This document shows, piece by piece, positions 11,963 to 55,209 of a stretch of 64,000 nt of DNA. How positions within the stretch are numbered: the first letter of the stretch is position 1; the number at the start of each line of letters is the position of its first letter. The notes beneath the pieces were generated by a model that was not told the origin of the DNA, made no database searches, and saw nothing but the letters and a program-made list of their open reading frames with translations. The position numbers were made by a program, and so were the translations under genes. This DNA is from Sphagnum compactum (lineage: Eukaryota). The stretch is from NCBI GenBank assembly GCA_965153455.1, contig OZ234493.1, positions 9,228,213 through 9,292,212 of the forward strand, read 5' to 3'.

Positions 11963-13627
11963 AACTTTATTGAGCCTTACATGTTTTTCCCACCCCCACA
12001 ATTTGAACCCTTAGTTGTTCATAATATTATTAACAAAGAAGAAATCTTAGGACAATACAAAAGTTTTTTATATTACACAATGCATTTATTGGATTATGAA
12101 TTTGAATTCCAATTTTCATAGTTTCAAGAATTATTTTATTGAAATACGCACATAGGTTTGGTGATTTCTTTTAATAATTCCAATCTCCCTTCAAGATCAC
12201 GAAAAACACAAAAATTGTGTAATAGATGAACAAGCATCTCACAAAAAAAACCCCCTAATTAACACAATTTATATAAGAACCTACACCTTCAAATTTTCTT
12301 AGGACTAGAAACCCTTGGTTAGGTTCCAAATTGAGTTTTTGTTCAAGTACTTAATACTTTCATGGTCCTACACAGTGTGATTCATATTAATTAGTTCATG
12401 GGTGCACTCACAACTTCATAATTTTTTTCTTTTTTTCAAGGAGCCATATTGATTGGCTTATCAACAAAAGTTTTGGAGCATTGGGCATGTCCCATATAGA
12501 ATGACCTCTTTGGACCCCAATTGCAAAATAGAAGCAAATGTGCTTCCCTAAATTTCACCTTTTCAATTTATATACATGAGAGTTGAACTTTGGCTTAAGT
12601 GACCTAGCCCTGTGACTCCACCAATTTTGTTTCAAAAGAACTAGTGTTCATCCTAATTACTGAACCTCATGTAGTCAAAGAGGTTCACTCAAACTTTTTT
12701 TTTGCATGTCCCCTTAATTGTTAAATTATTTTTCCACCCACGTACTTACCCTAGTCGCCCAACTACCCACCTACTCCACTCACCCAAGCTACCTATCTAC
12801 ACCATCCATTTTCAAAAGTTTTTTTTTGTTTTCCAACATGGCCATCATCATTGCCGCAAGGAGAAAAAGTTGTTGAAGGTATCAACAACATTGAAACTTA
12901 GGAGAAAGAGTTGTATCAAGGTTGAGACTAGTTGCGGATCGCCAACAATGCTTGTGTTGCAATTTCTAGAGGTGCTCCAACTGATGGAGGATAGACGCAA
13001 CAACTTTGTGAGCTTGTTTAATGTAGACAACGAAAACACGGCTTTCTTTGTGCATAATTTGCTTCTTTACACACAAGGCATCTTATTTGTGTCTTGCTTA
13101 TCTATTTGTCTTGTTTTTCTTTCTTTCTCTTATTTTTATTTATCTTTGTGTTGTTGCAAGTCTCATCCTCTCCATACTATGCATTGCAAAGAAGATGATG
13201 ATGAGCCCAAGTTCATCATCATCTTCTTGTTGTTCTACTTGAAAAAATTGGGCACCAAATTAAGTTGTACATGATGATGATAAACAAAGTTGCAATGGGA
13301 AAGAAGATGACAACAAACTTAGTTTGCTTGAAAAATTATTTTTCAACTTGAAAAACTTAATTTTTTGTTGTAAATGATGATGATAAACTAGCTCATTGTT
13401 GTCTTTTTTCATGTTGCTACAAAAGATGATGACGAACTAAACATGTCATCTTCATTTTCTTTTTCCTACACATATGACGATGAGCTAATTCATCATTGTA
13501 TTCATTTTCTTTCACCATAAAAGATGACAGTAAGCTTGCTCATCATTGTCTTCATTTTTTCGTTGCAAAAAAACAATAACAAACTAGCTTGTTGTCATCT
13601 TCTTTCTTGTTGCTATAAAAGATGGTG

Positions 13628-14245
13628 CGAATAAATGTTCATTGTGATTTTCATGATAACATTTTTTTCATTTTTTCAATTCAAGTTTTTGTGAAATTTA
13701 ACAAAAATTTAGCAAAAATGAATCAAATTTAAACCTTGAAAAGATTTCCAAAATTTTGACCCAAAAAAACATTGTTTCATGGGTGTGAATAAATGTTCAT
13801 TGTCATTTTCATGATAAAGTTTTTTTAATTTTTTTAATTGAGGTTTTAGTGAAATTTAATAAAAATTTAACAAAATTAATCAAATTTAAACCTTTATAAA
13901 ACTCTAAAGTTTCACATAAGAACACATTGTTTTATGGGCACAAATAAACATTCATTGTCACTTTCATGATAATGTTTTTGTCATTTTTTCAATTGAGGTG
14001 TTTAGGAAATTTTACAAATTTTAGCAAAATTAATCAACTTTGGACCTTTAAAATTTTCCAAAATTTCACCCCACAAAAATTGTTTCATGGGCACAAATAA
14101 ACATTCGTTGTCATTTTCATGATAATGTCTTTAAATGTTTTTTAATTGAGGTTTTTATGAGATTTAACAAATTTTTAGCAAAATTAATCAACTTTGGACC
14201 TTTAAAAATTTCTAAATTTTCACCCAAGAAACATTGTTTCATGGG
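13628..14245. repeat. Tandem array, ~155-bp unit x4 (mirror at ~40390-41010)
   Basis: Recurring aataaatgttcattgtcattttcatgata...aaattaatcaa...acattgtttcatggg at ~13628, 13785, 13939 and 14091. Confidence 0.85.
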
Positions 14246-15309
14246 GTTATTTGTTACTATTGGTGAAAACCATGGCAATGATTTTATAATAGTAGAAACA
14301 TCATGTTGTTGTTGATGAAGAGAATATTAATGATGATGATGTTGCAATAGCAACAACATGAGTAATTGACATTTTTTGGCAACATAAAGTTTTAAAATAT
14401 TGTTACCATCTAATATTAAAATGTTGTAAATAATGTACATTAAAATTATAAATGTTATTTTTCATTGTGTGTATAAGAAAAGGTAACAACGAATTGAAGC
14501 ACCGCATTACCTTGTTGTAGGTCACATCAAGTTGCAATAAATAATTTGCCATTTTAATTTTTTATTACAATTGTTTACTCTTGGGCGAGCTTGAAGCTTC
14601 CCAACACTAGTGATAGTGAATGGCTACTATCACCATTACTAGGGAGCTTCAAGTTTTTTTTTTTGGGATTGAATATGGCCAAAATATATGTATATTTTCT
14701 TAATGATGTGCTTATAAATGAAAATAAAATTGATGAACTAGAAATAAAAGAAGAAGGAACAAAGCATTAATTAACCATTGTTTTGTTTTTAAATGGCACA
14801 TCCTCGAAAGAAACCTAGATGCCAAGGAAAGACATCAATTAATGATAATCAACATCAAATGAATGTTACAATAAATGAGCAAATTGAAATAAAACAAAGA
14901 ATTGTCATATATACACCCGTTCTTGGAGGTAAATATCTTGTGATGGATTATGTGGCTCATATGTTAGGGTTTTAAAAAGTTTAATTTAACCCAAACATTT
15001 CAAAAAATCCCAACCTATCTTCATTTTCTATCCAAAAGTGGGGATGGGTAAATTTTTTGCCCATTTTTTTCCAAGCAATACCCATATGTTTAGATAGGTG
15101 TTTCTTCCACTTAACACCAAACAATACCGTTATATAATGGGTTTAGGGTGTAATTTTTGTTTGTAACACCCTCATCGTGTTTACCATCCACTTATTGGTT
15201 TAATTGCAATACACTCATCATGTATAAATGAATATTTCATCTTTTTGGGCAACATTCACATCCATTTCATAATTATGGTATTTTTGTAAGGGAAATGGTT
15301 TTTCCAAAG

Positions 15310-15920
15310 GTGATCATGGAAAAATCCCACCAAAACATGTAATGGAACATGCAAATTGGGTGCATGAGGGGTCAAGGTGGGTGTGTAAAATTGATGGATG
15401 CACTAATAGTTATGCGACTAAATGGTTGTTTTGTTAACATTTGAACAATAAACGCGGGCTTCACATGGAAGTATGTAAATTTAGCTATCCTTTTTCTATT
15501 CATTTTGGGGGGCCAAGGTGGCAAGACCACCACGCCATGAATGCTTGCATTTTGAACAACCCACATGCACAACAAATTTGTAATGAAAATAAGGCAATTG
15601 ATTAAACAAGAAATCAAGTTAAAGGTGAGTGAGATTGATTTCAAATTGAAGCGCAATGCCTCAAGGAGGTTTGATGACCTTTATTGGCAAGATTAGCCAT
15701 TAACAAATTGTTGCACGTCATTAGCATACCTATGTGGGGAATGGGGTCTATCCCATGTAATGTATTTTCATGAATTGAAAAGGATGATAATTTGTTAAAA
15801 CAATTTGGGTGAGTAAAGTTGGTTAAACAAAGCCTTTTAAACTCACATGGGATGCTCCTAATTAGAATCCCAAACCCACCAAGGGCAATCAAGAAAAGGA
15901 GATCTGCAAATTGTATGCAA
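15310..15920 (+). pseudogene. C2H2 zinc-finger accessory gene of MULE C (degenerate); possible first exon at 14793 (MAHPRKKPR, NLS-like)
   Basis: Translates as WVHEGSRWVCKIDGCTNSYATKWLFC*HLNNKRG (Cx4Cx12H), then HHAMNACILNNPHAQQ...PLLARLAINKLL..WGMG..IEKDDNLL; homologous to the split ORF in element A. Confidence 0.6.
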
Positions 15921-17929
15921 ATATCCTAAATCAGAAATTATTCATAATGATGTGTTTGTAAACCGTTAATTTTATTTTTGCATTGTTTTCCATCATGCAT
16001 TTGAATGATGCTAAGAGGGCCACAGGGTTGTCTCTATTCAAAAGTTGGGTTATATTTTGATTATTGCCAATCTGAAATGATGTTTGCACATCAATGTAAT
16101 AATAACCTTATTTCAATGCAAAAAAAGTCTAATGTTCATATTCTAAATTTAAGTAAAAATCTTTTACAACTATAATCCAACTAATAAGCAATATACATAC
16201 AAATTGTAGTTAATAAATAATGTACATATAGTTTACAACTATAATGCAATTGACAAGCGACATACACCATGTCATAATTGACTTAACATTCAAATAAAAA
16301 ACACATCGTAGCAATATAATGGTTAAATTACAAGTTCTACATTTACAAACAACCATCTAAATAAAAATAAAAATTTCATAATTAAAAAAGAAAATATACT
16401 GGTCTTGAATTTTTTTCACATGTAGGTGTGTAAACTTACTTTGACTTTCATTGTTTTAGCATGAAAGTTTATTGAATTTTGAATGCATTGAAATGTGCAT
16501 CATCAAAGTTTACAATCAATAATTCATTTTAGTTGTATAAAATTTAACAACCTAAATGTTTAATATTCATGCAAGTAGTTGAAATTTAGTTGTACATTAG
16601 TTGTAATGGACATTTAGTTGCATGGTAGTCTAGTTTTAGTAGACACAATTTCTCAGAATTCAAGCTAAAAAATATTGAAATTTATCATGGAGGATTTATA
16701 CATGTACAAAACAATGACATTGGCAATGCAATATATTCATTGCTTCAATCTCATTTACAAACAACCATTCAAATACAAAATAAAGTGTCATAAGAAAAAT
16801 TGAAGTACATTGGTTTTGAATATTTTCACATGTAGATGTAACCGTAACTTCACATTTGTTGGACCATAGCACAACAATAGATTAAACTTGAATGTTTTGG
16901 GACACGCAATATCAAAATTCATAATCAATATTTCATTTTAGTTGTATAAAACTAACAACTTAACAACAATATATTATTATGCATAAGAAGAATGAATGAT
17001 ATTGCAAATGCACAAAGACCATGAATGTCAAAATTGAATTTTCTATTCATTACACCCAATAACTAAAAGTTCTTATAATTTCACACAATCTTAAGAATAA
17101 GATTTTTATGGTTTCAATCAATGATATAAAAATAACAATGATTTGGACAAAGAAATGAACAACAAAAAAAAGGTCTTCATTTCATGTTATTTAAATAAAA
17201 ATGAAATTTTTGTTTATCTAACTTGAACATTTCATTATTTGAACTAAAAGTTGAAATGCAAAAGATTGTCACATAATATGTCTCTTGGTTACTTCATAAA
17301 AAACCAAATAATAATAATTAAAAGGAACAATCATTTCCTCATTCATCATTTATATTTTTTTGACACTAAGCACAAGTGCATAATAACCATAGATGTAAAA
17401 CCTACAACCAAATGTCATATGGCTTTGCATATCTTGTGCAAATTTGAAACTTGAAATCTATATGTATAGTTGAAATTAGTTGTACACCAATTGCAATGGA
17501 CATTCAATTGCATGGTAATTGATAACTAATTACAAAGGAATTGAAAGTTTTAGATTTAATGGATGGTGGCAGTGCATACATGTGGCATGACTATATACAT
17601 CAATGACATGCACTAATTGCAAGGTAGATGCTAGTTGAATGTTACATTTTTGCTAATTATATGGTGCTTGTCATTCACAAAGTTTTCATGCAAATTGTTC
17701 ACAAATTCAAAATATGGTTGACCACAATTGTATATATTGTTGTTTTACATCAGTATAAGGCTCCATCTTGTAATTAACATGCAACTACAATAAAACTCTA
17801 TGAATTTTTGACATGGCATTTTATTTTGTAATTCCCGATTTTATATGGAAATGTAGTTGTAACATAATTACGCATTAATTGCTTTTGAACAAGGCATTGA
17901 AGTTTCCATGGACACTATTTATCATTATT

Positions 17930-20740
17930 CATGTTGAACATGAAGGCAATTACATGATGCCCATTGAGAAATTGGGTTGTGGATAATATATTGAATGTGT
18001 GGTCATTTGGAAAAGGTTACAAATGTTGGTTGCCCATCATACTTCAATAATGTAACATTATTGTCAACAATGTTTTATGGCCTCAAATATAACCTTCTAG
18101 TAAGCTCGTGAATGCATTGGTCCATGTGATGACCAACCATCTTACTTTTTTCAACTTTTAATTGAAAATTTAGTGTTTTACAATACCTTTCAATTGTTGC
18201 ATTAGTATCTTGCCCAACATATGGCAAAATTTTGTACCTAACCACCACCACACATATGAGTTTTAAACAAGTAATTTTCCTCCATATAATCCCAAAATGC
18301 ATTTGTTGTAAGGTATTTGAGGGTCAAAGATCTCGACTTGCCCATGGCCCATGTTCTAATACCAATTCCAAATGGACCCACCTTATCATACATAATGTTG
18401 CCCACCCTTACAACACCTTGACATATAGCTCTAGGTTTTTTAATCTTAATGCATGCTTGCATTTGGCATGTTCTTTTCACATGTCATGTGTGAAGGAAGA
18501 TGGTTGTGTAAGGCCATATAATTCTATAAGAAGGCAAAGACACATGAGGGTGTAATGGGAAAGTTAAACCATGGATTGGACAAGGAAAATGACATACAAT
18601 AAAAATAACATTAGTATCAAAAACATTAATTAAAGTTAATTCTAGATAATGCTTGTGGGGGATTAGTTGAGGCTATTTATATTTCCTTTTGTACAATCAA
18701 TATGAAAATATTGGGTAGCCAATTTGGATTATTTTGGTGAATGTGATCATTCAAAGCACACATCCATCGTGTTGGATTTTTTTTTTGACAACAATGTGAT
18801 ACAATATGCAACCGAAATGCTATTGTGCCACTCATCAAACATCATCATTGTATAAAATAAGAATAAAATCACAACAATATAAAGGTAGAAATTAGTTTGT
18901 GCAACATCTACAATTGAAATGGTGAAGGACAATTAAACACAAAACATGTTTCACTACACGTAAGGATTTGAAACACCTTGTTTTCATTGGTACCAAATGT
19001 GGCATCAATAGCAACAATCTTTTGGTGCCCATGTACAATCATCATCTCCTTTTGCATTGTGTTTGGATTCCCACAATGAAGGGCATATTGTGTCCTATCA
19101 ATGAACCTTTTATTTCAAGGTCAAATTTTCAATAGTAAAACACATAATGTGGATTTTGTTGGACATGCATATGCACACGTTTTGCATCATTTTTGTGTAG
19201 TTGGTATGTTTCATGGGCTAGCTTTCTTAATAGGAATCGAACATCTTATTAAGTGAAGAACATGTCCTTAGTCAATTCCAATCAACCATTCATGATGTCC
19301 TCGGCTTGGAGTTTGTGTTTGGCCATTATCTAGGACATTAAAAGCCCAAGCTTCAACCGTTCAATAACAAAATCCTTCATATCTTGTGACAAATGTGCTA
19401 AGAAATCAAACCTCTCCAACTTTTAGGTCCTCATGAACATGTAAATTATTTGCATTACAATGTTTTTGTTGGATGAAACACACTTTTGATATGTGTTTTA
19501 TAAAAAAATAGGGTATTCATTATGAAGTTGGCTTTAATGTAATCCCTTTTGATGGAGCTTCCTAGTTTTTTATCTGAATCCCTTGATCCCTTGTCACTTT
19601 ACTTGTAACATTATATTTTTTGGGCTATAAATTATGCTATTAAATAGTCTTCAACAATGTTGGTGAAGTCATTAAGACCATATTGACATTGGTACCTATG
19701 GAAAGTAGTTAATAATTGGGCATAAACATGTTAAAGTAGGTCAAAAAAGTATCATGAGAATGTAGGAAAACAAAATTGTCAACTTTGGAAGTTAAAAAGT
19801 AGGACACGTTCTTTGAAAATTAATGTTTAAATTACATGAGCATATGTTGTATGACTTGAAAAAGTTTTTAAAAGCTTAAGATGTTGCGTTTACATTTTTT
19901 CCAACCTACTTTCATTCGCTTTTTTTGATTTGGTGTTGTCCCATTTTGCACAAAGTAAACATAAAGTATAATCATGATCTTTCAGTTTTTAAATTCATTC
20001 TCATGGCTTCCTCAAAGAATGTATAAAGTGTGCTTTATCATGTTACAAACACAAAATACATTTGTAATTCATATTGAAAAGTAAGTTTTAATTGCTTTAG
20101 ACTTATGTAAGAATTTTTTTTACTTTGAAAGGCTTAACATTGTCATAATTGAAAGATTCAAGTTCCAAAAATTATGTATCAATATGCATGATGGTTCGAG
20201 CATTAATAACACCATTTGAATAATTTGATTTGGAAAATGTATCATATATAAACTTGCAATAAATAAATAAAATAGCTTGAATATTGGGCATGGCCATGTA
20301 TGGTTTATTTGATATGGCAAGTATTCCCCAAATTTTACAATATCGTTTAAAGGCTTGAAACTTGAAAAATGCAAAATCTACTTTCCACTTACTTTTACTT
20401 TTTGAACAAGAATCACCAATTGGCCTACTTTAGCATGCTTGCACGCCCACTTGCACAATCAATGTTTCATCATGTATCAGTAAATATCACTTTTGAATTC
20501 AATATCACTTTTGATTCAAGGTTCTTGTAGTGTTTCACTAATGTTACATTTTCAACAAACAAATTGACACTTCCCACCAAGTATGGTCTCTTCACCACTT
20601 ATAAAGGAAGCACTCAATTTGTGGGATGAATACAACTTCAACAAAGTAAACCTTTTGTTGTGCCCATGTGTGTTAAATAACCACATCCCAAAAGAAGTCT
20701 CGACAATCACATGACTCCATTTGATGGGGTTTGAAAGCAT
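17930..20740 (-). pseudogene. Mutator-like (MULE/SWIM) transposase pseudogene, left copy
   Basis: Mirror of 33917-36705. Confidence 0.75.
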
Positions 20741-21289
20741 TGCTCTAATGTAAGAAGGTCAAGGGCATGGATGTCCCATGGAGATTTGAAGCCACTATAT
20801 ATGGAACTTGGATCCAAGAATTTTTGCATTGCCAATTTATATACAATCAATGTTTCTATGTTTTGAAAATAATTCATGTAACTTTCAAAAACTAAAGCTT
20901 TGACATAATGTCTAATTACTCATATTATGGATTCATTGAAAAATCAATCTTGTATTAAGCAATGATATTTTAAGGAAACATGTAATGCACCATGCATTAA
21001 AACAAACAATGCACAACTTACTTTTTGTTAATTGTGAAGTGTAAAACCCTAACCCATCTTTAAAATTTAAATGTTATAAGAACTATCACTGAAGTGGTTA
21101 TATAAAAAATATTATAACATTAAATTAACGAAAATTAATGAAATGTGAATTACACCCAAGTAAACATACCCTTAAACCATTGAAATTTCCAACAAGTAAT
21201 AAAACATAATGGGATTGATTGATATTAAAGGAATCTAGAATAAAATTAATTTGTATGTGTATAATTAATGGATGCAAAACTTAAACTTG

Positions 21290-25101: not shown

Positions 25102-25229
25102 TTGTAGGTATGTAATGAGGGGCATCATAACCCTAAAAATCTTGATTTGTGATGAGAGTTTTTTTTTTTTCTGGGTGCCCTACTTGTGTATGTGACTGTA
25201 TGCTTGTAGATGCTATATCAGTCACAAAA

Positions 25230-33612: not shown

Positions 33613-33916
33613 TTACACTTCATAATTAACAAAAAGTAAGTTGTGCATTGTTTGTTTTAATGCATGGTGCATTACATGTTTCCTTAAAATATCATTGCTT
33701 AATACAAGATTGATTTTTCAATGAATCCATAATATGAGTAATTAGACATTATGTCAAAGCTTTAGTTTTTGAAAGTTACATGAATTATTTACAAAACATA
33801 AAAACATTGATTGTATATAAATTGGCAATGCAAAAATTCTTGGATCCAAGTTCCATATATAGTGGCTTCAAATCTCCATGGGACATCCATGCCCTTGACC
33901 TTTTTACATTAGAGCA

Positions 33917-38714: not shown

Positions 38715-39330
38715 TGCATACAATTTGCAGATCTCCTTTTCTTGATTGCCCTTGGTGGGTTTGGGATTCTAATTAGGAGCATCCCATGTGAGTTTAAAAG
38801 GCTTTGTTTAACCAACTTTACTCACCCAAATTGTTTTAGAAAATTATCATCCTTTTCAATTCATGAAAATACATTACATGGGATAGACCTCATTCCCCAC
38901 ATAGGTATGCTAATGACGTGCAACAATTTGTTAAAGGCTAATCTTGCCAATAAAGGTCATCAAACCTCCTTGAGGCATTGCGCTTCAATTTGAAATCAAT
39001 CTCACTCACCTTTAACTTGATTTTTTGTTTAATCAATTGCCTTATTTTCATTACAAATTTGTTGTGCATGTGGGTTGTTCAAAATGCAAGCATTCATGGC
39101 GTGGTGGTCTTGCCACCTTGGCCCCCCAAAATGAATAGAAAAAGGATAGCTAAATTTACATACTTCCATGTGAAGCCCACGTTTATTGTTAAAATGTTAA
39201 CAAAACAACCATTTAGTCGCATAACTATTAATGCATCCATCAATTTTACACACCCACCTTGACCCCTCATGCACCCAATTTGCATCTTCCATTACATGTT
39301 TTGGTGAGATTTTTCCATGATCACCTTTGG
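38715..39330 (-). pseudogene. C2H2 zinc-finger accessory gene of MULE C, right copy
   Basis: Mirror of 15310-15920. Confidence 0.6.
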
Positions 39331-42300: not shown

Positions 42301-42671
42301 CAATTTGGAACCTAACCAAGGGTTTCTAGTCCTAAGAAAATTTGAAGGTGTAGGTTCTTGTATAAATTGTGTTAATTAGGGGGTTTTTTTTGTGAGATGT
42401 TTGTTCATCTATTGTACAATTTTTGTGTTTTTCATGATCTTGAAGGGAGGTTGGAATTATTAAAAGAAATCACCAAACCTATGTGCGTATTTCAATAAAA
42501 TAATTCTTGAAACTATGAAAATTGGAATTCAAATTCATAATCCAATAAATGCATTGTGTAATATAAAAAACTTTTGTATTGTCCTAAGGTTTCTTCTTTG
42601 TTAATAATATTATGAACAACTAAGGGTTCAAATTGTGGGGGTGGGAAAAACATGTAAGGCTCAATAAAGTT

Positions 42672-45600
42672 GGTTGGAGTGACCTAGCACCTATCAATGC
42701 ACTAGTCCATTGAAACTCGTTGTGGGTTTCATTGGTTGGATGAAGCTCTAATTTTTAAAAAACTTTTTCACTTCCTCACTACCCTTTTTTACCGCTTTCA
42801 TGGACCTTTTTTTTTTCTTTCTATTATTCTTGGTTGTTTTTCTTCTCTTTCTTCTTATTTTCTTGTTTTTCTTGTTACTGTTTTTTCTTTTCTTCCTCCT
42901 TGTTTTTTTTTCCTTTTTTTTCATGCTATTTTTCCTTCTTTTCCTCCTTATTTCTTTTCTTGTTTTTTTTTCTATTCTCCCTTGCTCCTCTTCCTCTTTT
43001 TTTTCTTGATGTTTTTTCTTTTCTTCCCCCTTGCTCCTCTTCCTTTTTTTTTTCTTGATGTTTTTACTTCTCTTCCCCCTTACTCCTCTTCATTTATTTT
43101 TCTTCTCTTCCTCCTTGTTCCTTTTCCTTTTTTTCCCCCCTACTTCTTCCTTTTTTTTTTTTCCTTTTCTCTTGTTGTTTTTTCTTATTATTTTTCTTGA
43201 TGTTTTTTCTTGTTTCTCTCCTAGCCCTTCTTCATCTTTTTTCCTTGTTATTTTATTTTATTTTTCACGTGTGTTGGGTCTTTTAATTTGGAGCAAGATA
43301 GCGATTTGGAGAAACATTATAGCTTGTTTCAAAGGGTTGGCGAGTTGGATTCTAAGCAAGATCACAATGCAACTAAAGGTGAGTTGGAACGACAAGACTT
43401 GTTCATACAAAAACAAAACAAAGCTTAGAGCTTTTCAAGTGAGTTTTTTTGTTTTTAAAATTTTTTGTTTTCTTTTGGTTTCTTTTATTTTCTATTTTTT
43501 TCATGTTTTTTTTTCTGTTTCGTGTGTTTTTAAAAAAAAATCTTTTTTTTTTTTCATGTTTGTGCCTTTTTTTCATTTTTAAATTATATCTTTTATTTTG
43601 GTTTTGGTTTTAAAAATAATTTATTTTCTTTTTTGTTTTCAAATTCTCTCAATTTGTGTGTTTTGTTTTGTTTATTTATTTACTTATATATATATATAAT
43701 GTTTGTGTGTTTTTTTCTTACTCATATAAACCTTGAAACTTTTATTTACTATTGCATGTTTGTATTTGTGAATTAGATTGTGTGGAACCACTAAGGATGA
43801 GTTTATAATCAACATAATTCATCTTCACATATAACACCAACAATTGTGCACATATCATCATGTTACAAAAATGATCAAAGGAGTTGCAACTTATTGACAA
43901 ATTCATAAAATTATAAATGAAGAAATTAGTGATCGAAATGGATCTTTTATGAAAAAGGAATAACATGTCATTACTTCTTTTTTTGTATTAACATGGACTT
44001 ATTGATTTGCATTTTTGTTGGACATAATTCTTATGGTTTGGTGCATTTTGCATGTAATCTATGTGTACATAGAAACAAAAAAAAATAGTTTATGCCATTT
44101 TGTATTATGGCAACCAATGACATGTGAATGTTTCCAAAAGATCTTAGTGAATTTTTGAATTTCAAATTCATTTCAAATTTTGCATTAATTCATGTAAACG
44201 TTGCTTATTTACAAATTCAAATTGTATTATGTTAGTCAAGCAAAAAATATGAAACATTAAAAATAAACATAACTTTTATTTGAACATGCAATTGTACCTA
44301 CATATGAATTTTTTATAATGCATTGTACATTGTTTTCACCCCATAATACCTGCATTAACCTCCCAAATTTTTCGTCGATTTTTTTAGCCAACCATGTCAT
44401 ATTCACATCCATAATTGTTAAATTACATTTTGTAACATAATCACCCCACAATACCCACATTGCATTCCCAAATTCTTCACTAGTTTTTTTGGCCGACTAT
44501 GTAATACCTAGATCCATAATTGTTAGAACTTTTTTTGCAACATTGCCACCTTGTAATGCCCACATTGCATTCCAAAATTCTTCATTGATTTTTTTGGTTA
44601 ACAATTGCCACCAACTATGCAATACCTACAATATGGGTCTTAAAAATGTTGATTATTGTATCAACCAATTATGTAATATTTGTAAACCTACATGTTTTCC
44701 CAATTAAAAATTTACTTATATGCGAATATTGGATGTGTAATGTTTGACATGTGGTTTTGGCATTATACCAAAGTGGGTGTTGCATTTTGAGGTCAAAAGT
44801 CCACCTAAATGAGGCTTGGACTAATAAATGTTAGTTTCGGCATGATCCTTAATGTGAGTATTGCATATTGGGTAATTAATACAACTTATTAATGGTGGAT
44901 GAAAATATTGCATTGTGATTTAAAGTGGGTTAATGAAGTTTATCCAATTTAAAAAGGTATTGCAAAATCATTTCAAAAGTGTGTTGAAATTCCATTCAAT
45001 TTTAAATGCATTGATTTTTGTAATACTTCATTGATGATAATAATTGCATTCCATAATATCTTTAGGATTTTCTTGTGTGTGAGCAGTACCAAAGAAGTAG
45101 TTATTTAGCCAAAAAATAAAAAGTGTTTTGTTGAAATATTGAAGTTTAACCAAAAAAAAAAATTGGTTTTGTTGAAGGTGGAGGTTTAGTTAGGAAGTAA
45201 AAAAGTTTTATTGAAAGGTGGAAGTTTAACGAAATAAAATATTTAATTTTGCCAAGATATAGTGGTTCAACCAAAAAAAGATATTAGTTTTCCAAGAGGT
45301 GGAGGTTTAACCAAGAAGTAAAGGGGTTTTGCCAAAAGTGACGTTTAACCAAGAAAAAACTTCAGTTTTGTTAAAAGATAAGCCAATCAATATGGCTCCT
45401 TGAAAAAAAATAAAACTAAGCTAATAAAATGTAAAGGTTTTGATGAAAGGTAATGGTTTAGCCAATAAATAAAGAGGTTTTGTCAAAAGGTGAAAGTTGA
45501 ACCAAGAAAAAATATTGATTTTGCTAAAAAATAAAAATATAGTTATAAACTAAAGAGGTTTTGTTAAGAGATGAAAATTTAGCCAAATATAAATAGTAAT

Positions 45601-46335
45601 TTTGTTGAAAGATAAAGATTTAGCTAATAAAAGGTAAAGGTTTTGTTGAGAGGTAACAATTTAATCAATAAGTAAAGAAATTTTGTTAAAAGGTAAAAAT
45701 TTAACCATGAAAAGTTACTAGTTTTGCCAAAAGGTAAAAAGTTTAGCCAAGAAGTAAAAAGGTTTTGCCAAGAGATAAAAGTTTAGCTAAAAAGTAGAGA
45801 GGTTTTGGAAAGAACTAATGTTTAGCTTGGAAGTAGAAAGCTTTTACCCATATATAAAAGCTTAGCCATGAAAAGATAAAAGTTTTACTAGGGAGAGATA
45901 AAAGTTTTGTTGAAATATTAAAAATGCATAGAGGTTTAATAAGAAACTAAATAGATATTGTCAAAAGGTAGAGGTTTAACCATAAAAAAATAGGTTTTGG
46001 CAAGAAGTAAAAGTTTAATCAAGAAAAGATTACGACTTTTACCTAGAGGGTAAAAATTTAGCTAATGAAAACATAGAAGGTAGGTAGGAGGGGAGGTCGA
46101 TTATTAGTTGATAGGTAGGGCTAAGATGCAGGTTAGTAGTGTAGCTAGGTCAATAGGGTAACTAGGTGGGAAGGTTACTTGAAGGTTAAGTTTGAGAAAA
46201 AAATAGCTAAAAAAAAAACTCATTAATCAAAAACAAAAAAAAGTTGACTAATTAAAGCTGGATGAAAAAAATGCAACCCATCCAATGGACAGAATGACCA
46301 ATTGGTCCATCGGTGGGTGTTGGTTCACTTTGGCC
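42672..46335. mobile_element. Non-autonomous MULE element B, complete (3.66 kb)
   Basis: TIRs ggttggagtgacctagcacc / ggtgttggttcactttggcc; perfect 9-bp TSD aataaagtt at 42663-42671 and 46336-46344; internal CTT-rich tract, ~105-bp repeats (44330-44600) and a subterminal array. Confidence 0.85.
45095..46070. repeat. Subterminal tandem array (~35-40-bp unit, aggtttagccaa core)
   Basis: Many degenerate copies of ttttgccaa.aggt..aggtttagccaagaagtaaa; the same core in opposite orientation at 46630-46915 in element A. Confidence 0.8.
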
Positions 46336-48319
46336 AATAAAGTTATGTTTTGGATCATTTATGGGCCAGAGTGAACCAACCCCCATGACTACACCAGTTG
46401 GCCGTTCTAACCATAGGATGGGTTGGATGATTCACCTTTTTTTCATTTGCCTCTTTACCTTGCGTTAACCAACATCCTACCACAATCAATTTTTTTTGGT
46501 TGCTAACCTTTTGACCATTTTTTTTTGTTGCCAAAATTTTCCCAACCCTGACCTCCATACTATCCACCCACCTAGCTACCCTATTGACCTAAATCTTAGC
46601 CTTGCCTACAAACTAACAAACTAATCCCTGACTTACCTTGGCAAAATTCTTATCTCCTTTTGGCTAAACTTTTATTTCTTGGTTAAAACTATATTTATTC
46701 TTGGCTAAATTTATATCTCTTGGCTAAACCTATATTTTTTCTTGGTTAAACTTATATTTATTAACTAAATTTATATCTCTTGGCTAAACCTATATTTCTT
46801 CTTGGTTAAACATATATTTCTTGTCTAAATTTCTATCTTTTGGCTAAATATATATATATCTTAATGGCTAAACTTTTATCTCTTGGTTAAATCTATATAT
46901 TTTATTGGCTAAACATCTACATAATACCAATACATATGTATGAATTTTTTTAATGTAATATTCATATATTCTACTTCTCCTTTTTATGTCATACTTTTAA
47001 GAGATTAAATTTCCACCAAACTATGGATGAGGGTATTGCATACCTAGGGCGACTCATGATGTAGTAGACTTGAATGGCAATGAACCAAGTTTCCACAATG
47101 CCCTCATGTTAGGATGGGTATTACTTGGAACATAAGAAAATCAACTGGCATTTTATGTTTTAGATGCAAGTATTACATAATTTTATTATACTTTTATTTA
47201 TTTTAAATATTTCTTGTCACAATGATGAAAGGATGGGCAAGGGTATTGCATGCTCGGGACCAATCATGATGTGATGAGAAACTTGAATGGTAATGGACCA
47301 AGTTTTTGCAATACCCTCATGTCAAAATGGGGCACCTATTGGAAATATGAAATGCGAATAACCCCAAGTCCTTCCTATAAAGGTGGCCGGATTGCACCCT
47401 AAACATGGGTTGGTTAATGATGTGGGTATTATAATTTCATCGGCTTTATGAAAAACCCAACATTGACAATAAAATATCAAGAGTTTATAATACATGCATA
47501 GTGAAATTGGTTTATGCACCAAGGGGTCATTTTATGAAGGTGGGCAATTTAATTATATATAAGTATTCAAATATAATATCTTCTTAAGGTTATTGTGCAA
47601 CTATTTCATGATAAGGATAATGAGAGTATTATATAGTCAATCATTTAATAATGAACTTTAACTTACATTCATGAAAATATTGCTTAAATGTTCTATAATG
47701 TCCACAAAATGTGTTAACCTTATAAGATGAAGGTATTATTCATTTTGTTTATGGTAAATGTAATCCATTTGTGGTGGAGGGGGGTATTGTGTGCAACATG
47801 GCATAAGGGGATCCCAAAATTTACAAAATTCATAATTATATTTCAAAATTAAAACAAGTGGATTGATACAAAAATGTCATGCCACCCCAAGCTATAATGC
47901 ATCAATACAAAATGGTGTGTACATGCACTAAAGCCTCACTATGGGTTCAACTACAATGATATATATCTATGATTAGTCATTTGAGGAGGATGAATTAGAT
48001 GCAATGCCCGTAGTGGTGCAATAGTTTGTTGTAGTTATTATAGCTTTTGTTACATCATGATGAGTGAATAATTGACAATGTTCAAGCGCAAGTTGAATTG
48101 CATTTACAACTAAAGCCTTTTTTGTTGTGCCCCAAAGCTTAACACACACAAAAATAATAATAATTAGATTCTGATTAAAAAATGCAAACAATGTAAAAAT
48201 AAATAAAATTAAAGTATGGAAATATATTGTTCATGAACAATTTTGCAATTGTAATACTTGCATATTACATCCATTTCTTTGGCTTGATTGTGCTTATTAG
48301 ACTCCAATGTCCAATTTCG

Positions 48320-51300
48320 AACACCCCATGCAAGTTTGAGAGGCTTTGCATAGGCAACTATGGTTGCCTAAATTAGCTCAACAAGGTTATCATCCTTTTC
48401 AAGGCGTGCCCATGCACTTTGTGAGATGAACCCGACCCCCCATGCCAGAATCCCAATGATGCCCAACAAGATCTCGAAGGCTAAATGTACCAATAAAGGT
48501 TGCTTAACCTATTCCATTCACTACGCCAAAATGTGGTTTTTATGACTAGGACATGTTGCAACTACTCCCCAAAATAGTCATGTAGTTGTAAATGGACTTG
48601 AGTCGTAGTCATTTTGACGACTATAGTCATAATTGTGCGTATGTGATTAAAAATATGACTATGACTACAACTAAAGGTAATTATGACTACAAATATGACT
48701 ACACGACTAATGTAACCATTTAAAAGTAATTACTTGACCTTGTTTCAACAAGTTTAAAAAAAAACCTAAAATACATATCAACATGGTCAAATTTGTATTA
48801 GAATCCTAATTTACCTTAATTTAATATAATTTACATAATTCCAAATTTCATATATTTAAATTTAATTTAGTATGAATTAATATAAACCTAGTTTAATTTA
48901 AATTAATTTAGTTTAATTTAATCCAATCTTAATTTAACCCACTTAAGGCTAGTTCACCCTAAGTAGCCTATATAGTTTATCTTAAATAACACAATCTATT
49001 ATAAATAATCTTATATTTTAACTTAATGTAACATATTTTAACATAGGTAAGCTAATTTAATTTAGTTTAGCCAAATGGAACCAACTTTAACAACATTAAA
49101 AAATTTCCAAGTTTAGCCAAATTTAAATTAATTAACTCAATTTAGCATAGTTGGCATGAATTCCAAAAAATACATTAAAAAAATTTATTTGCCAAAATAA
49201 TTCAAATTTAGTCAAGTTTACTTGACCATGTTTAGCATAAATGTTTTCATGTAATTTGATTTCACCAATTTTAACCAAAATAAAACTTCAATGTCGAAAG
49301 TTTAACCTAAATGTTTTAATTTATCCAAGTTTAGCCTAGTTTATTAAAATTTAGCCAAATATATAACCACATTTACCTTTATTTTTGAAGATTTAACCAA
49401 ATTTATTCAATTTCAACAAAACAATTCAAATTTAAATAAAAATTTGCTTAGTTTAACCAAATTTAACCAAAATCATTTAGTTAAAAAAACATTATCTTCA
49501 TTTACCCAAGCTTAACCAAGTTTTAGCCAAGTTTATCAAAATATAAGAAAATTTATCCTATTTTTGTTAGAATAACCTATTTTAGCCTCATTTATATTGT
49601 TTTAACAAAAATTAAACAAAATTAATGAACTTTAGCTTTAGTCTAATTAAGTTTAATCTAAATATCCGATTTTAATAACAAAAGAAACATAATTCAAACA
49701 ATTTCATGTTATTTAAACCAAATTTAAGAAAGTTTTACTATATGTATCTATGGGTTTAGGATTCATAAATTTAAAACATATTAAATCTATATGTAAAATG
49801 ACCTTTAAGAAAATTTGATTAATATAATTTTTAAAATATAAATTTTTTAATTTTTTTTGTATTATGTATATATTAAAAAATCAGTAAATATTTATATATA
49901 TATAACATTGCATATGTATGTGTATATATTGTATGAAATATATAGATTTTTATAAATTAAAAATTATAAAAATTGACATAATGAAAAACCACTATAATTA
50001 TAAGGTTATATTAAGTGGTTGGATTATATTAAATATAATAAAATTAATTGGTAAATATCTTCTTTTTAAATATCAATTCTATTAATTAATTTACAATATA
50101 CTGAAAATAAATATAAAATTGGAATTAATATATGATTATTAAACATGATATAATGAAAATTAAATATTCGCATATAAAGTATAAATATTGAATATATGTA
50201 CATATATGTATACGTATATTATAATATGTGTATATTATATATATATGATACATAATATATATTAATAATATCATATTATGTTAATATTTCAGAATTACAA
50301 AAGGAATTAAAAATATTTAATGTTTTATATTCAAATTATACATATATTTATTAAAGTTTCTCATGTATTGAAACATAACAGATATGTTAAAATTTTAAAA
50401 ATTCAAAAACAATTTTCTGTGTACAAAATTTGTTATTTGAATTTTTAGTTGGTTCACATATGTAGATTATGCTCCAATGTTTTTAACAATTCATATTCGT
50501 ATTTTCATTTGAGTAAGTATTGGTAAAGAAATTAAATTTTAAACTTTGTATTTTTATACATTTAAACATTGGAACATGATAAAGTTTTTATGTGGCAATA
50601 TTGTGTTGCATGTAATGTGGTAAGTGGATGGCAAAGGCCTTCAACCAATTCAAGAAGGCCCAAGGATCAATACTTGTCCCCACCATGTCGACCAATTTGA
50701 CCATGTTGAATATAGTAAACTTTGACCATTGCTATGATAATGACATATAATACAACAATTTTTATATGGTTGTATATAAATTTTATACAATTCATGTACA
50801 AACCATACATATATATATAAGTATAATTATTTTGTAAAATCAATATTTGAAAACATAGTTAAATATTAATATAATAATATATAATTTTATTATATACAAA
50901 ATATATATTATATATATTATATATAAATAATATTTTGTAGTCGTAGGTGTAGTCGCAATGGTGGTTATGTCTATGACCATCTTAGCGACTAGTAGCATTT
51001 ACAATGTGGTCTTTTGGACTACAGAGTCATGTAGTCACAAGGAGTTGCAAATGGCATTTATGATTAGTTTTTTAGTTGTAAATGTAGTTGTAAATGCCAT
51101 GTTTTTGGCATTGTGATTTGTTGCGCTTGGGTCAAGTTCATCCCATTTTAATTTCACTTTCTTCTTCATTCGACCAAAAGCATTTTTCTCATTTCACTTT
51201 TGCCTTGCATGTGGGTTGCTCAAAATATGAACATTCATAGAACTGTGGTCTTGTTGCCTGTGCCCCCTATGATGAGAAAATGGATGCTTTAATCTCCTAA

Positions 51301-51440
51301 TTTGCATTCAAAGGGAGGGTTTGCTCCAAGTGTTTACAGAACAACCATGTGGTTGCATAAGAACTAGTGGATGCACCACCTTGCAACACCATTTTGAGCC
51401 TTTGTGAACCCATTCATTGTCCTCCATTGTATCTCCATGT
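48320..51440 (-). pseudogene. C2H2 zinc-finger accessory gene of MULE A, split by the CACTA insertion
   Basis: 51440-51119: WVHKGSKWCCKV..TSSYATTWLFCKHLEQ...DHSSMNVHILSNPHARQ; 48518-48320: QPLLVHLAFEILLGIIGILAWGVG...LEKDDNLV; colinear with the element C protein. Confidence 0.65.
48519..51115. mobile_element. Non-autonomous CACTA element (2.6 kb, extremely AT-rich interior)
   Basis: Starts cactacgccaaaa and ends ttttggcattgtg (2 mismatches); 3-bp TSD att at 48516-48518 and 51116-51118; gactac/gtagtc subterminal repeats at both ends; removal rejoins the zinc-finger gene. Confidence 0.88.
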
Positions 51441-51489
51441 TCATCTTGAATCGGAGGAAGAACCTTTAATTGAGGTGGTATTACAACTT

Positions 51490-51780
51490 AAGAGGGTATT
51501 GCATCTGGGCTATCCACCACACATGTAATAAGACGAGGGTATGGACTAAATCAACATACATAATGTGGAATTACATGTATGCTAACCACCATAATTACAA
51601 CAAGATGAAGGTATTGCACTAAAACAACGTACATAGAGTGGAATTACACCTAGGCCAACCACCACAATGACAAAGCAATGAGGGTATTACACTAAATCAA
51701 CATACATAATGGGGAATTACATTTAGGCCACCCATCACAATGTCAACAAGATGAGGGTATTGCACTAAATCATAACTCTA
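51490..51780. repeat. Tandem array, ~70-bp unit x4
   Basis: Recurring gatgagggtattgcactaaatcaacatacata.tg.ggaattaca...accacca. Confidence 0.75.
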
Positions 51781-52184
51781 AATCAAAAAGGATGAAAGCA
51801 TTGTGAACCAAAAACCAAGGAAATATTATATTATGTGCAAGAAACTTGATTCGAAATGTTCAGGTATTGTTACAAATTTTTTTTGACAAAAAACAACCCA
51901 TTTCATTTTCACATAGAGAGTAAGGATGGGTTTTGATGTGACCGTATGCATTTTTAGAATGCACCTTTCATGACATACCTTGAGAAGACATGGCCATGTA
52001 TACTACAATTACTTGTTTTTCAATTGTATTTGGCACCACTTGTTTTACAATTGTATTTGACACCTTTTGTGCCTTTCATGCATGTTTCCTTTGAATAGCC
52101 ATATTAAGACAAACTAGAAGACCTTAAAAGGGGAAAAAATCATTAATATACATTTTTTGTCTGTTGCAACAAAGTAAGGTAACT

Positions 52185-53410
52185 TGAGACATAGGAACAC
52201 GAAGAACAAGAAGATGACGACAAGTTGGCTTTTTGTCATTTTTTTGTAGTTGAAGAAGAAGACAACGACGAGCAAATTAAGTTCATTGTCGTCTTCCAGA
52301 GCACAATAACACAAAAAACAAGAATATAACAACGAGCCAAGCTTGTCATCATCTTCCGCAGTTGAGCAACAGGAAGAAAATGACAACGAACATTTGTTTG
52401 TCGTTGTCTTTTGGAGCACAAGAACACGAAGAGCATGAAGATGACAACGAACTTGGCTCATCGTCCTCTTTTGCAGTTGAACAACATGAAGAAGATGACA
52501 ACGAACATTTGCTTGTCGTTGTCTTCTAGAGCATAATAACACAAAGGAAAGGAAGATGACAAGGAGCTGGCTCATTGTTGTCTTTTGCAGTTGATTAATA
52601 AGAAGAAGAACAAGACGACGATGAGAAAAAACTTGTCATCTTCTGGAGCACAATAACATGAAGAATAGGAAGAAAACAACAAGCTTAGTTCATCATCGAG
52701 TTGAGTAAGAAGAAGAAGAAGAAGAAGACAAACATTTGCTTGTCATCGTCATCGTCTTTTGGAACACAATAACACGAAGAAAAGAAAGACGATGACAAGC
52801 TCGCTCGTTGTCGTCTTGTACAGCTAAGTAACAAGAAGAAAAACAAGACGATGACGAGTAAAAGTTCATTGTCATCTTCTAAAACACAAAAACACAAAGA
52901 ACATGAAGATGATGATGAGCTAAGGTTCATTGTTGTCTTTTGCAATTGAGTAACAAAGAAGATGATGATGATGAACATTTGTTCATCATCATATTTTGGA
53001 ACATAAGAACACGAAGAAAAGGAAGACAACGACGAGTTGGAACACAAAAACACAAAAAACATGAAGATGACGACGAGCCAAGGCTCGTTTTTGTTTTCTA
53101 TAGTTGAATAAAAAAAAAGAACAAAAAAAAAAGGAAGATGATAATGAGTTGGTTTGTTGTCGTCTTCTGGAACATGGGAACACAAAGAACATGAAGACAA
53201 TGACGAGCCAAGCTCTTCAATGTTTTCTGCAGTTGAACAATAGGAAGAAGAAGACAATGATGAACATTTGCTTCTCATCGTTTTCTAGAGCACAAGAGCA
53301 TGAAGAACAAGAAGATGACAATGAGCTTGGGTCGTTGTCCTTTTTACAATTGAATAATAAGAAGAAGAAGATGACAATGGCAAATCGAAGTCTGTTGTCG
53401 TCTTCTAGAG
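52185..53410. repeat. Subterminal degenerate array (gaagatgacaacgagc...gtcgtcttc mini-hairpin units)
   Basis: Over 15 units pairing gaagatgac with gtcatcttc; related array at 13190-13620 / 41030-41440 in element C. Confidence 0.75.
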
Positions 53411-55209
53411 CTTTCTAAGACAATGAACTAAAACTTAAATTACTTGAATAAGGGTGGGCCATGGTCTTACTTGCTTGGGTTGGAGTTGGCGATGGAACTT
53501 TTGGTAGGCGATGATGGTAGGTGGCAATGGAGTTGAACACAATGATGGACCCTCTTGAGCTGCTAACCTTGATGTGATGGTGGGTCCTTTTGAGTTGCTA
53601 GAGTTGCTGCGATGATGTTGCAATGGTGGGACCACACAAGATGGAAGAGGGTTTGCAAGGGAGGGAAGGGGATTGGTAGGTTTGTAAACGAGTTTGAAAA
53701 GAAAAAAAGGCCCAAAAAAGAATGATGATTTAAAAAAAACTGCTGAAATGAAATTGATGCAAGTGTGGTTTGCCAACCCAATGTGGGTGGATGAAACCCT
53801 TTCCATCCAAAACGGGATTGGTGCAGTCATGGGGGTTGGGTCACTCAAGCCTCATTTGTGTTCATATTGTCCAATCCATCTTCTATTAACCCTAGTTTCA
53901 GTTAACCTTGAAGCCTAAGCTCATTTTACAACCATTTTACTTCAACCTTAGTAAAAAATGTGGTCCAATCTATTCATCCATGAATCAAACTTCAAATCCA
54001 AATGTTGGATAATGGATTCAAAGTTTACAAATTCATAGTTTTTTGATAAAAAAAAAACTATAATCATGTAAAGGATGATGAGATAGAAAAGCTAGATTGA
54101 GCTCTATAGCATTTTGTAAGGTTTGCCCAAGGTTGGGTTTGAAGTTGCATTGATGAAGATTAAAAATTTGACATGGATTAATGCATGATTTTTGCATATG
54201 GCACTCACATTGACTAAGTTTCACTCATAAAGGAAAAGAAGGTTTCAAGTCAAAATGTGGTTCATGAAGTCTTGCAAGTTTTGGAACAAGAATGTCAATG
54301 TGAGGATCCTTGAAAATGAGGAATAAATTCTCAATACTAGAACTCATGGTTCAACTTTTAAACGAGCTTTCAAAGTTAGACCACCTAGGTTAGGAAGGTT
54401 GACTAGGGTTGGGTTTTTCCCTTGAGCATTCCCCATTCACATGTGGCAAGGCATGGGGGTTTTTTTTTTGATAAACTCCTCCCTAAATCCACTTAGGTGT
54501 GTTTGATTAGCAAACCATTATTCAAGGCGTGCACCCAAGCAAAAAAATACAAATTAAAAAATAAAGTCCATCTAGATTTAATGTTTTAGGTTGTAGACCT
54601 GTAGTGCAAGAGTTCTTGAACATTGAACAATTTTGTGAATTTTGAGTAATTTTTGTCACTGAAAAATCATTTAAATTTATTGATTTTTTCAAAATTGAGA
54701 TCTATCATAAGGTCCCCTTCACACTTGGGCCAGGGGCTCAGGCCATACTAGTAAACATGAAAAATGAGACACAATAAAGTGAAAGACTATTTATAAAAAA
54801 ATAAAATAAAAAATTGTGATGTTGCACTGGCGATCATCCACAAGGAGATTTAGCCATGCATGTTTGGCTACAGACCAGGTATGAAAGTAGAAATTTATTA
54901 AAATCCTTTTTTATACACCGAACTAGCCTACTTTGCTTCAACAAATGTGTATAGAAACCATACCGAATTTTTAGAAAAATTTCATCAATTTATGGCTTTT
55001 TTTTTTGGGTTCCTTTTTTCCCCCAAAAAGAATATTAGACAGAAAATTAAAATTTGGCAAATTTTTTTTCGCCAAATGGCGAAAATTCTCCTACCAAAAA
55101 AAACGCTGCGAATCTGCGGGCCAGTTTACTCATGGCGATGGAGCTGCTCTAAAACGAACTCAAGGTTTTGCCGCTTAGATAGATCCACACTTTTTTTGGT
55201 GTATTTTCT

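What the first reader, a model, noticed from the sequence alone, without database searches (positions are those of the whole stretch)
12592..53851. Moss MULE family carrying a conserved C2H2 zinc-finger accessory gene plus motif arrays: candidate transposon-encoded regulator or anti-silencing system
Seen: three elements (A 46364-53851, B 42672-46335, C from 12592/42042) share a GG-initiated TIR, and A and B have 9-bp TSDs. A and C are diverged at DNA level, yet both carry the same orphan gene (C2H2 finger, NPHA.Q segment, hydrophobic ...WG.G...EKDDNL domain) reading away from the equivalent end. In C it is convergent with a MULE/SWIM transposase. Established: MuDR carries a convergent second gene (mudrB), and Arabidopsis VANDAL MULEs encode VANC anti-silencing proteins that bind short motifs in their own tandem repeats. 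Inference: this zinc-finger protein is a family-specific accessory factor, possibly acting on the element's own arrays. I do not recognise it as a described family. All copies here are pseudogenised.
Basis: partly seen in the sequence, partly recalled or inferred. Interest (0 to 1): 0.8.

Follow-up and report, generated by a model that had tools for sequence, protein, structure and literature searches.

The report
Moss transposon's zinc-finger helper gene
Three broken copies of a peat-moss jumping gene lie here, and their family carries its own zinc-finger gene together with a short repeated DNA word, a pairing that looks like a self-activation system known from Arabidopsis but built from an unrelated protein; binding and function are untested.

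Summary
Mostly confirmed, with two corrections. A and B are TIR-bounded with 9-bp TSDs. C is one element, duplicated, with no far end found.

The orphan gene is a three-exon, ~320-aa C2H2 + GRP + helical protein without a Pfam family. It belongs to a many-copy moss MULE family that has intact young copies elsewhere in the genome. It is convergent with the family transposase (40 of 55 loci checked), under purifying selection between subfamilies (dN/dS 0.14-0.30), and spliced and transcribed in relatives.

Correction 1: the transposase relic beside C is ~30% identical to the family's and probably comes from another MULE lineage.

Correction 2: the conspicuous GC-rich arrays do not track the protein. 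A noncoding word, GGTATTGC, does: 30-31 per full element, none in the coding exons matched, present in every subfamily down to 35% protein identity.

Best reading (0.5): a trans-acting factor that binds this word and activates the element, like VANC but apparently not homologous. No binding or demethylation is shown; copies bear heavy methylation-type mutation. The scan noted this family before in at least five other windows of this genome. New variant of a known kind.

The parts
12592..12630 (+). Element C, gene-proximal terminal inverted repeat; far end and TSD not found
13160..13610 (.). C left-arm array of GAAGAYGAY-type words (subfamily-type array, CpG-decayed); limits approximate
13630..14245 (.). 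154-bp tandem repeat, 4 copies, inside C
15321..15950 (+). Zinc-finger accessory gene, exon 2 relic in C (8 stops in the first frame, frameshift near 15800; end approximate)
17950..21044 (-). MULE/SWIM transposase relic of another MULE lineage, probably not C's own; no GGTATTRC word in it; limits approximate
10252..21044 (.). One arm of a 10.8-kb inverted duplication (97.4%), other arm 33613-44416
33613..44416 (.). Other arm of the inverted duplication: holds C' (TIR at 42042, gene relic 38634-39313 on -) and the left half of B
42672..46335 (+). Element B, non-autonomous, TSD AATAAAGTT (9 of 9)
43790..43927 (+). Relic of exon 3 of the accessory gene in B (duplicate at 10744-10881, - strand)
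   Evidence: tblastn E 2e-4
44336..44630 (.). 105-bp tandem repeat in B with GGTATTRC words (2 exact here, 3 in B)
46364..53851 (-). Element A, non-autonomous, TSD 8 of 9; gene-proximal end at 53851
47030..47331 (.). GGTATTRC words downstream of the gene in A (4 exact)
48003..48125 (-). Exon 3 relic of the accessory gene in A
48233..48518 (-). 3' part of exon 2 relic in A
48519..51115 (.). CACTA-type insertion splitting exon 2 of A (ends CACTA / CACAA, TSD ATT)
51116..51469 (-). 5' part of exon 2 relic in A (C2H2 finger, frameshifted)
51477..51772 (+). 73-bp tandem repeat with 5 exact GGTATTRC words, at the position of intron 1 of the gene
52190..53420 (.). A left-arm array of GAAGAYGAC words in both orientations

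Best explanation
A, B and C are dead derivatives of a peat-moss MULE family whose full elements (13-14.6 kb, ~36-bp TIRs, 9-bp TSD) carry two convergent genes: a MULE transposase (four candidate exons) and a three-exon, ~320-aa accessory gene (variable acidic peptide repeats; one C2H2 finger; an AT-hook-like GRP; a 44-residue helix; a helical C-terminal domain). SHOWN: the gene is element-borne, conserved in the transposing lineage, spliced and transcribed in relatives, and not needed in cis. A short word (ATGYRGGTATTGCAW, core GGTATTGC) is kept in dense, same-orientation clusters in introns and intergenic DNA of every subfamily examined. INFERRED: the protein binds this word through finger plus GRP plus basic helix and acts in trans on all word-bearing copies to open or re-activate them (anti-silencing or direct activation), as VANC does for VANDAL, from a different protein scaffold.
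For: Element-borne: 14 of 20 loci had both TIRs with a 9-bp TSD at 0-1 mismatch. Linkage: convergent gene at 37 of the 60 best transposase matches by listed coordinates, plus 3 of 15 fetched 'none' loci. Selection: dN/dS between Y1, Y1b and Y2 consensuses 0.14-0.20 (kappa 1), 0.19-0.26 (kappa 3), 0.22-0.30 (kappa 6); copies against their own consensus 0.56-0.82 (Y1, 24 copies, 13 stops) and 0.65-0.96 (O1, 14 copies). Expression: stranded poly(A) reads of relatives on opposite strands over the two genes, and a GT..AG joint at intron 2 in RNA contigs. Annotated Sphagnum proteins join exons 1-2, 2-3 and all three. Word: 30 and 31 per full element, 0 in the 3.3 kb of exons matched; 16 in 108.6 kb of background; 971 triplets genome-wide against 17 for the reversed control; 89 of the first 100 listed lie within 10 kb of a family anchor covering 3.4% of that region. 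It is the top 8-mer present in 14 of 14 loci of a lineage only ~35% identical in protein, and 259 against 7 in shuffles around 80 metagenome copies. Repeat units of different period share little but the core, which diverges 3-6% against 14-17% for neighbouring bases. The VANC layout (short motif, noncoding, same orientation, tandem repeats; peptide repeats in variable regions) is from passages of PMC5735166.
Against: No binding or methylation data. Young copies are heavily mutated at methylatable cytosines (C>T per 1000: CG 9-36, CHG 20-52, against 1-3 for A/T transitions), with no dip near the word, so they are methylated most of the time. The finger helix differs between lineages (AKWLL.Q/K against AKYNL.R/Q/W) while the core word stays the same, the opposite of the VANC co-divergence pattern. 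A single finger is a weak reader (own knowledge). The word could equally be bound by the transposase or a host factor: it persists in copies that lack either gene. The core-conservation test is biased, because cores were defined on one partner, the units are tandem and the four pairs are not independent. 12 of 15 fetched transposase loci had no exon 2 within 9 kb. RNA depth is low (5-12) and mostly from 85-99% relatives; the two contig runs look like one data set. dN/dS between Y2 and Y2b is 0.49-0.72.
Confidence: 0.5

Rival explanations
1. Transposition helper like maize MURB or CACTA TnpA: the protein helps the transposase assemble, excise or integrate. The GGTATTGC clusters are sites for the transposase, for this protein as a scaffold, or for a host factor, and silencing is not the point.
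For: Convergent two-gene layout as in MuDR (MuDR layout recalled). Word clusters lie near the transposase-side TIR and upstream of the transposase as well as around the gene. No hypomethylation footprint in the copies. Transposases themselves can activate cognate copies (passages of bioRxiv 10.64898/2026.08.24.746577).
Against: The word is absent from the TIRs and sits in introns and internal DNA. Gene and transposase halves recombine between subfamilies: dS 0.41-0.43 for the gene against 0.02-0.045 for transposase exon 4 in the same element pairs, which does not suggest a tightly matched protein pair.
Confidence: 0.3
2. Self-limiting regulator: the protein binds the word, or acts through convergent transcription, to repress or time the transposase rather than activate it.
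For: Convergent transcription. Derivatives that keep an open exon 2 but lost the transposase are common (7 Y1 elements).
Against: Those derivatives decay nearly neutrally after insertion, so the host is not keeping them as repressors.
Confidence: 0.12
3. Pack-MULE passenger: a captured host gene fragment carried along without function, with the arrays as by-products of tandem duplication.
For: The family does capture host DNA in its left arm. Profile searches list only their best 120 hits, so a host paralogue in another moss is not excluded.
Against: Purifying selection between subfamilies with near-neutral tips. Exon structure kept across lineages at 35% identity. Every named full-length homologue is an unnamed Sphagnum product.
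Confidence: 0.04

Closest known systems
Arabidopsis VANDAL21/VANDAL6 with VANC21/VANC6 (PMC5735166, PMC10398659; passages read)
   Same: A MULE with an accessory gene. A short motif amassed in noncoding tandem repeats, in the same orientation and at high density. An accessory protein with a conserved part and a variable part of tandem peptide repeats. The core GTATT also occurs in the VANC21 motif YAGTATTAY, which may be chance.
   Different: VANC is structurally related to MAIN and dicot-specific (passage of PMC13547354); this protein is C2H2 + GRP + helices with no Pfam family. VANDAL TIRs are described as degenerate; here they are intact. VANC motifs differ between families, while here one core is kept across lineages at 35% protein identity. 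Binding and demethylation are shown for VANC, not here.
Maize MuDR (mudrA + mudrB)
   Same: Two convergent genes between TIRs, 9-bp TSD, derivatives lacking either gene (MuDR facts recalled; no mudrB passage was read).
   Different: TIR identity here falls off after ~36 bp, against ~215 bp recalled for Mu. MURB is not recalled to have a C2H2 finger or internal motif arrays. No direct sequence comparison with MURB was made.
En/Spm TnpA (passages in PMC10398659 and bioRxiv 10.64898/2026.08.24.746577)
   Same: An element-encoded second protein that activates cognate copies, with loss of methylation.
   Different: CACTA superfamily; its effect is confined to the termini; TnpA has a beta-barrel domain (figure legend passage in PMC13547354).
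TFIIIA/GLI-type C2H2 finger
   Same: Best PDB profile hit is TFIIIA 1tf3, E 0.0018; finger modelled at pLDDT 89-97.
   Different: Only one finger. The remaining ~150-200 residues match no solved sequence.

Membership tests
Mutator-like element (MULE) | MULE DDE transposase | tested here: met
   PF10551 29.5 bits, cut-off 27.6, E 1e-6, in exon 2 of an intact copy
Mutator-like element (MULE) | 9-bp TSD and terminal inverted repeats | tested here: met
   14 of 20 loci with both TIRs and TSD at 0-1 mismatch; window A 8 of 9, B 9 of 9
VANDAL/VANC | Accessory protein of the VANC (MAIN/PMD-related) type | tested here: not met
   No Pfam family at E<=1 for three intact exon-2 frames; none relevant at E<=0.1 for spliced P0085/P0070; PDB profile finds only C2H2 fingers at low E. 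No VANC sequence was compared directly; that PMD has a Pfam model is recalled.
VANDAL/VANC | Degenerate TIRs | tested here: not met
   27 of the first 30 bases match between the ends of a young copy; VANDAL feature from a passage of PMC10398659
VANDAL/VANC | Short motif enriched in noncoding tandem repeats, same orientation, element-specific | tested here: met
VANDAL/VANC | Motif changes together with the accessory protein between families | tested here: not met
   Same GGTATTGC core in Y1, Y2, O1 and D1 despite a changed finger helix; left-arm arrays change but do not follow the protein tree
VANDAL/VANC | Protein binds the motif and demethylates or activates cognate copies | not testable with these tools
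   Indirect mutation-spectrum test showed no hypomethylation footprint
MuDR (mudrA/mudrB) | Second gene convergent with the transposase | tested here: met
   40 of 55 transposase loci checked; opposite-strand RNA
MuDR (mudrA/mudrB) | Long (~215 bp, recalled) TIRs | tested here: not met
   27 of 30, 39 of 60, 49 of 100 identical between ends
MuDR (mudrA/mudrB) | Homology to MURB | not tested
   No MURB sequence was at hand; none was named among the listed homologues
Pack-MULE passenger | Fragment of a host gene, not under selection in the element | tested here: not met
   dN/dS 0.14-0.30 between subfamily consensuses, whole three-exon gene kept

The most novel reading that the evidence does not exclude
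Peat-moss MULEs evolved, independently of dicot VANC, a sequence-specific anti-silencing system: an undescribed single-finger protein family that binds GGTATTGC clusters and lifts DNA methylation from every cognate copy in trans. The protein family also has 24-32% relatives in unnamed assemblies, so the system may reach beyond Sphagnum.
Probability: 0.33. Interest if true: 0.8.

Novelty: new variant of a known kind. Interest (0 to 1): 0.5.

Why it matters
Sequence-specific anti-silencing by an accessory protein is known from dicot VANDAL/VANC and CACTA TnpA. A moss MULE with an unrelated protein and a defined 8-base candidate target would show that the strategy arose more than once, and would offer a small candidate tool for targeted demethylation or activation. 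Intact young copies exist in this genome, so the protein-word pair can be tested directly. If it is only a MURB-like helper, it is still a new protein family bearing on what second MULE genes do.

Tried and rejected
(1) The conspicuous left-arm arrays as the finger's target: rejected. They come in three types (AGCTCC, GAAGAAGGCGACGG, GAAGAYGACGA). One protein subfamily, Y1b, has two types (3 against 1 of 4 loci), and Y1 and Y2b share the finger helix but not the array.
(2) The transposase relic beside C as C's own: rejected as probably foreign.
(3) Fold searches with two AlphaFold models (pLDDT 79, pTM 0.34; pLDDT 80, pTM 0.52): no Foldseek match at E<=0.001; VIA best Z 5.7 (rmsd 2.9, 68 aligned) and 7.1 (rmsd 4.8, 83 aligned), generic helices. 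The C-terminal domain was not folded alone, so this shows neither a new fold nor the absence of a known one.
(4) Homodimer prediction: no answer.
(5) ESM Atlas: exon 2 gave hypothetical clusters at 0.90 and below; residues 25-226 of P0085 gave Basidiomycota hypothetical clusters at 0.92-0.94, no alignment, an untested lead.
(6) Context of the 24-32% relatives: the metagenome scan with P0207 found nothing; cluster look-ups and a further search gave no organism names.
(7) Hypomethylation footprint near the word: none.
(8) Cross-genome transposase linkage: contigs too short; 0 of 4 loci with at least 4 kb downstream, one edge hit in L238.
(9) Unassigned word clusters on contig 1: 5 of the 7 (one of the other two is window A) were sampled with ~2.7-kb stretches; 2 held 3' fragments of the gene, 3 did not.
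(10) Paper searches for this family found no description in the held library; most subscription papers are not held and no supplements were read.
Full report
OBSERVATION. The shared TIR word lies at +12592, +42672, +46364, -53851, -46335, -42042 and -11962. B (42672-46335) has a perfect 9-bp TSD and A (46364-53851) an 8-of-9 TSD. 10252-21044 is an inverted 97.4% copy of 33613-44416, so C and the left half of B are each present twice through one duplication; further 96-98% copies of the C region lie on contig 5. No far end of C was found. The gene relic in C runs from about 15321 to 15950, with 8 stops in the first frame and a frameshift. In A it is split by a CACTA-type insertion (48519-51115, TSD ATT). 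B holds an exon-3 relic at 43790-43927.

THE FAMILY. The window's genome (382 Mb) gave 600 candidates for C's protein and 797 for an intact copy; 150 were scored each time. A young TIR pattern matches 347 times, its reversed control 0 times. Of 20 stop-free matches fetched, 18 had the TIR within 4 kb upstream and 14 had both TIRs with a 9-bp TSD (11 perfect, 3 with one mismatch). Elements of 13-14.6 kb carry a convergent transposase in four candidate exons (PF10551 above cut-off). Seven Y1 elements of 8.8-9.5 kb gave no hit to the last transposase exon but keep an open exon 2. Named full-length homologues are unnamed products of Sphagnum balticum and S. jensenii, so the host is very probably a peat moss.

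LINKAGE. Of the 60 best of 152 transposase matches, 37 have a listed accessory gene convergent at 3.9-7.5 kb, 3 have another arrangement and 20 have none listed. I fetched 15 of those 20: 3 had the gene and 12 had no exon 2 within 9 kb; 5 were not checked. That makes 40 of 55. Two of the 12 (L102, L109) have exons 1-2 replaced at nearly the same joint, so the gene is not needed in cis. In 80 metagenome loci, 18 of 22 with at least 3 kb upstream have the TIR and 60 of 62 have exon 3; transposase linkage could hardly be tested there (0 of 4, one edge hit).

CORRECTION ON C. The transposase relic at ~17950-21044 is ~29-31% identical to the family's. The older subfamily O1, nearest to C's protein, has its own convergent transposase, about 55-68% identical to the young one in the best-kept exons, in 8 of 8 loci. 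None of the 34 non-family relatives of the relic lies within 12 kb of a listed accessory gene (the lists are incomplete). The relic region holds no GGTATTRC word. It is probably a neighbouring element of another MULE lineage.

THE GENE. Three coding exons, ~320 aa. Intron 2 is seen as a GT..AG joint in RNA contigs of two runs that look like one data set, and not among the DNA-run joints shown (132 joints were not shown). Annotated Sphagnum proteins join exons 1-2 (CAM6015125.1), 2-3 (CAK9265676.1) and all three (CAM6018555.1); these are gene predictions. Stranded poly(A) reads, mostly from 85-99% relatives, cover exons 2-3 at depth 5-12 on one strand and the transposase at depth 1-4 on the other. 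Exon 1 holds variable tandem peptide repeats. No Pfam family was found. The model shows a confident finger, a 44-residue helix and a helical C-terminal part; the only sequence link to solved structures is the C2H2 finger (TFIIIA, E 0.0018). 280 cluster representatives match at E<=0.001, down to 24-32% in unnamed assemblies; a few rows are finger-only or repeat hits. dN/dS between the Y1, Y1b and Y2 consensuses is 0.14-0.30 over three transition weights; O1-O2 is 0.27-0.46; Y2-Y2b is 0.49-0.72; pairs with the two-copy Y3 group are 0.18-0.47. Copies against their own consensus give 0.56-0.82 (Y1) and 0.65-0.96 (O1), with 0.34-0.49 (Y1b, 4 copies) and 1.2-1.8 (Y2b, 3 copies) in small groups. This is the usual pattern of a gene selected only while its element transposes.

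TWO KINDS OF ARRAY. (a) Left-arm arrays between TIR and start codon, probably in a 5'-UTR intron (inferred from splice-like sites), are often GC- and CpG-rich and of three types. They do not follow the protein. (b) One word, consensus ATGYRGGTATTGCAW, is enriched in all three groups first compared: 13-31 exact GGTATTRC in 14 of 15 young elements (7 in the 4.8-kb L046), against 16 in 108.6 kb of background. L036 and L040 hold 30 and 31, none in the 3.3 kb of exons matched (chance about 2e-4 if uniform). Genome-wide there are 971 triplets against 17 for the control, and 89 of the 100 listed lie within 10 kb of a family anchor. A lineage D1 at ~35% protein identity has the same TIR type, the same exon 2-3 boundary and the same word in 14 of 14 loci (124 in 47 kb against 2 in 80 kb); only 1 of 14 shows transposase within 6 kb. 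The word sits in repeat units of about 42, 51, 62, 73, 79, 103 and 105 bp that share little else, and its core diverges 3-6% between Y1 and Y2 against 14-17% for neighbouring bases (biased test, pairs not independent; the two O1 comparisons returned no usable alignment). In the window A has 9, B 3 and C 1.

MECHANISM. Shown: an element-borne, selected, expressed accessory gene, dispensable in cis, and a selected-looking noncoding word that travels with it. Inferred: the protein binds the word and activates cognate copies in trans (0.5). The layout matches VANC21 and its YAGTATTAY motif (passages of PMC5735166). The gene half and the transposase half have different histories (dS 0.41-0.43 against 0.02-0.045). 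Rivals: transposition helper 0.3, repressor 0.12, passenger 0.04.

COMPARISON. It is a MULE by transposase, TIR and TSD. It is not filed as VANDAL/VANC: VANC is MAIN-related and dicot-specific (passage of PMC13547354), VANDAL TIRs are degenerate (passage of PMC10398659), and motif-protein co-divergence was not met. It is not filed as MuDR: the TIRs are short and MURB homology was not tested (MuDR facts recalled). It may still work like either.

PAPERS SEEN. Passages of PMC5735166, PMC10398659, PMC13547354 and bioRxiv 10.64898/2026.08.24.746577; all others only as search listings; no supplements. Eight searches found no description of this family in the held library. Earlier notes of this scan describe the same family in other windows of this genome, one with a 14-base motif. 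I read them after my own analysis; they are not independent support.

VERDICT. Real; a new variant of a known kind; interest 0.5. The window copies themselves are dead relics.

Noticed in passing
window 48519-51115: AT-rich 2.6-kb CACTA-type non-autonomous element (ends CACTA/CACAA, TSD ATT, GACTAC-rich subterminal repeats) inserted into exon 2 of element A.
   Followed up: partly
window 10252-21044 and 33613-44416: 10.8-kb inverted duplication at 97.4%; three more 96-98% copies of the C region lie on contig 5, one reaching window 23802.
   Followed up: partly
L040 1207-2030 and 2160-3060: Host-like fragments sit between GAGCTC arrays in the left arm; the first matches a deep RNA contig. The inserts differ between copies: Pack-MULE-type capture in an autonomous element.
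   Followed up: partly
L102 and L109 (G000:C7:2203334-, G000:C2:7486540-7499946): Transposase-bearing derivatives in which exons 1-2 of the accessory gene are replaced by other DNA at nearly the same joint, leaving exon 3.
   Followed up: partly
L040 6240-6500: Telomere-like (AAACCCT)n array between the two genes of the young element.
   Followed up: no
L036/L039/L040 against L042/L043: Accessory gene dS 0.41-0.43 but transposase exon 4 dS 0.02-0.045 between the same elements: left and right halves recombine between subfamilies.
   Followed up: partly
L036 14835/14844, L063 832/834; window 46335/46364: Family members often lie end to end, a few bases apart, suggesting insertion next to their own TIRs.
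   Followed up: no
window 46-267 and 32903-33282: A ~240-bp repeat with inverted arms (32903-33000 / 33183-33282, 94%), probably a MITE, has a relative at the window start.
   Followed up: no
window 28240-29020 and 31660-32010: GC- and CpG-rich islands with short tandem repeats (31-92 bp; 27 bp) in otherwise CpG-poor DNA.
   Followed up: no
P0085 residues 25-226: ESM Atlas feature hits at 0.92-0.94 to Basidiomycota hypothetical proteins; no alignment, may be generic helical likeness.
   Followed up: no
P0199/P0290 family: A distant intact-looking ~220-aa relative family (about 30% identity; cluster of 26 members) from unnamed short assemblies; host and context unknown.
   Followed up: partly
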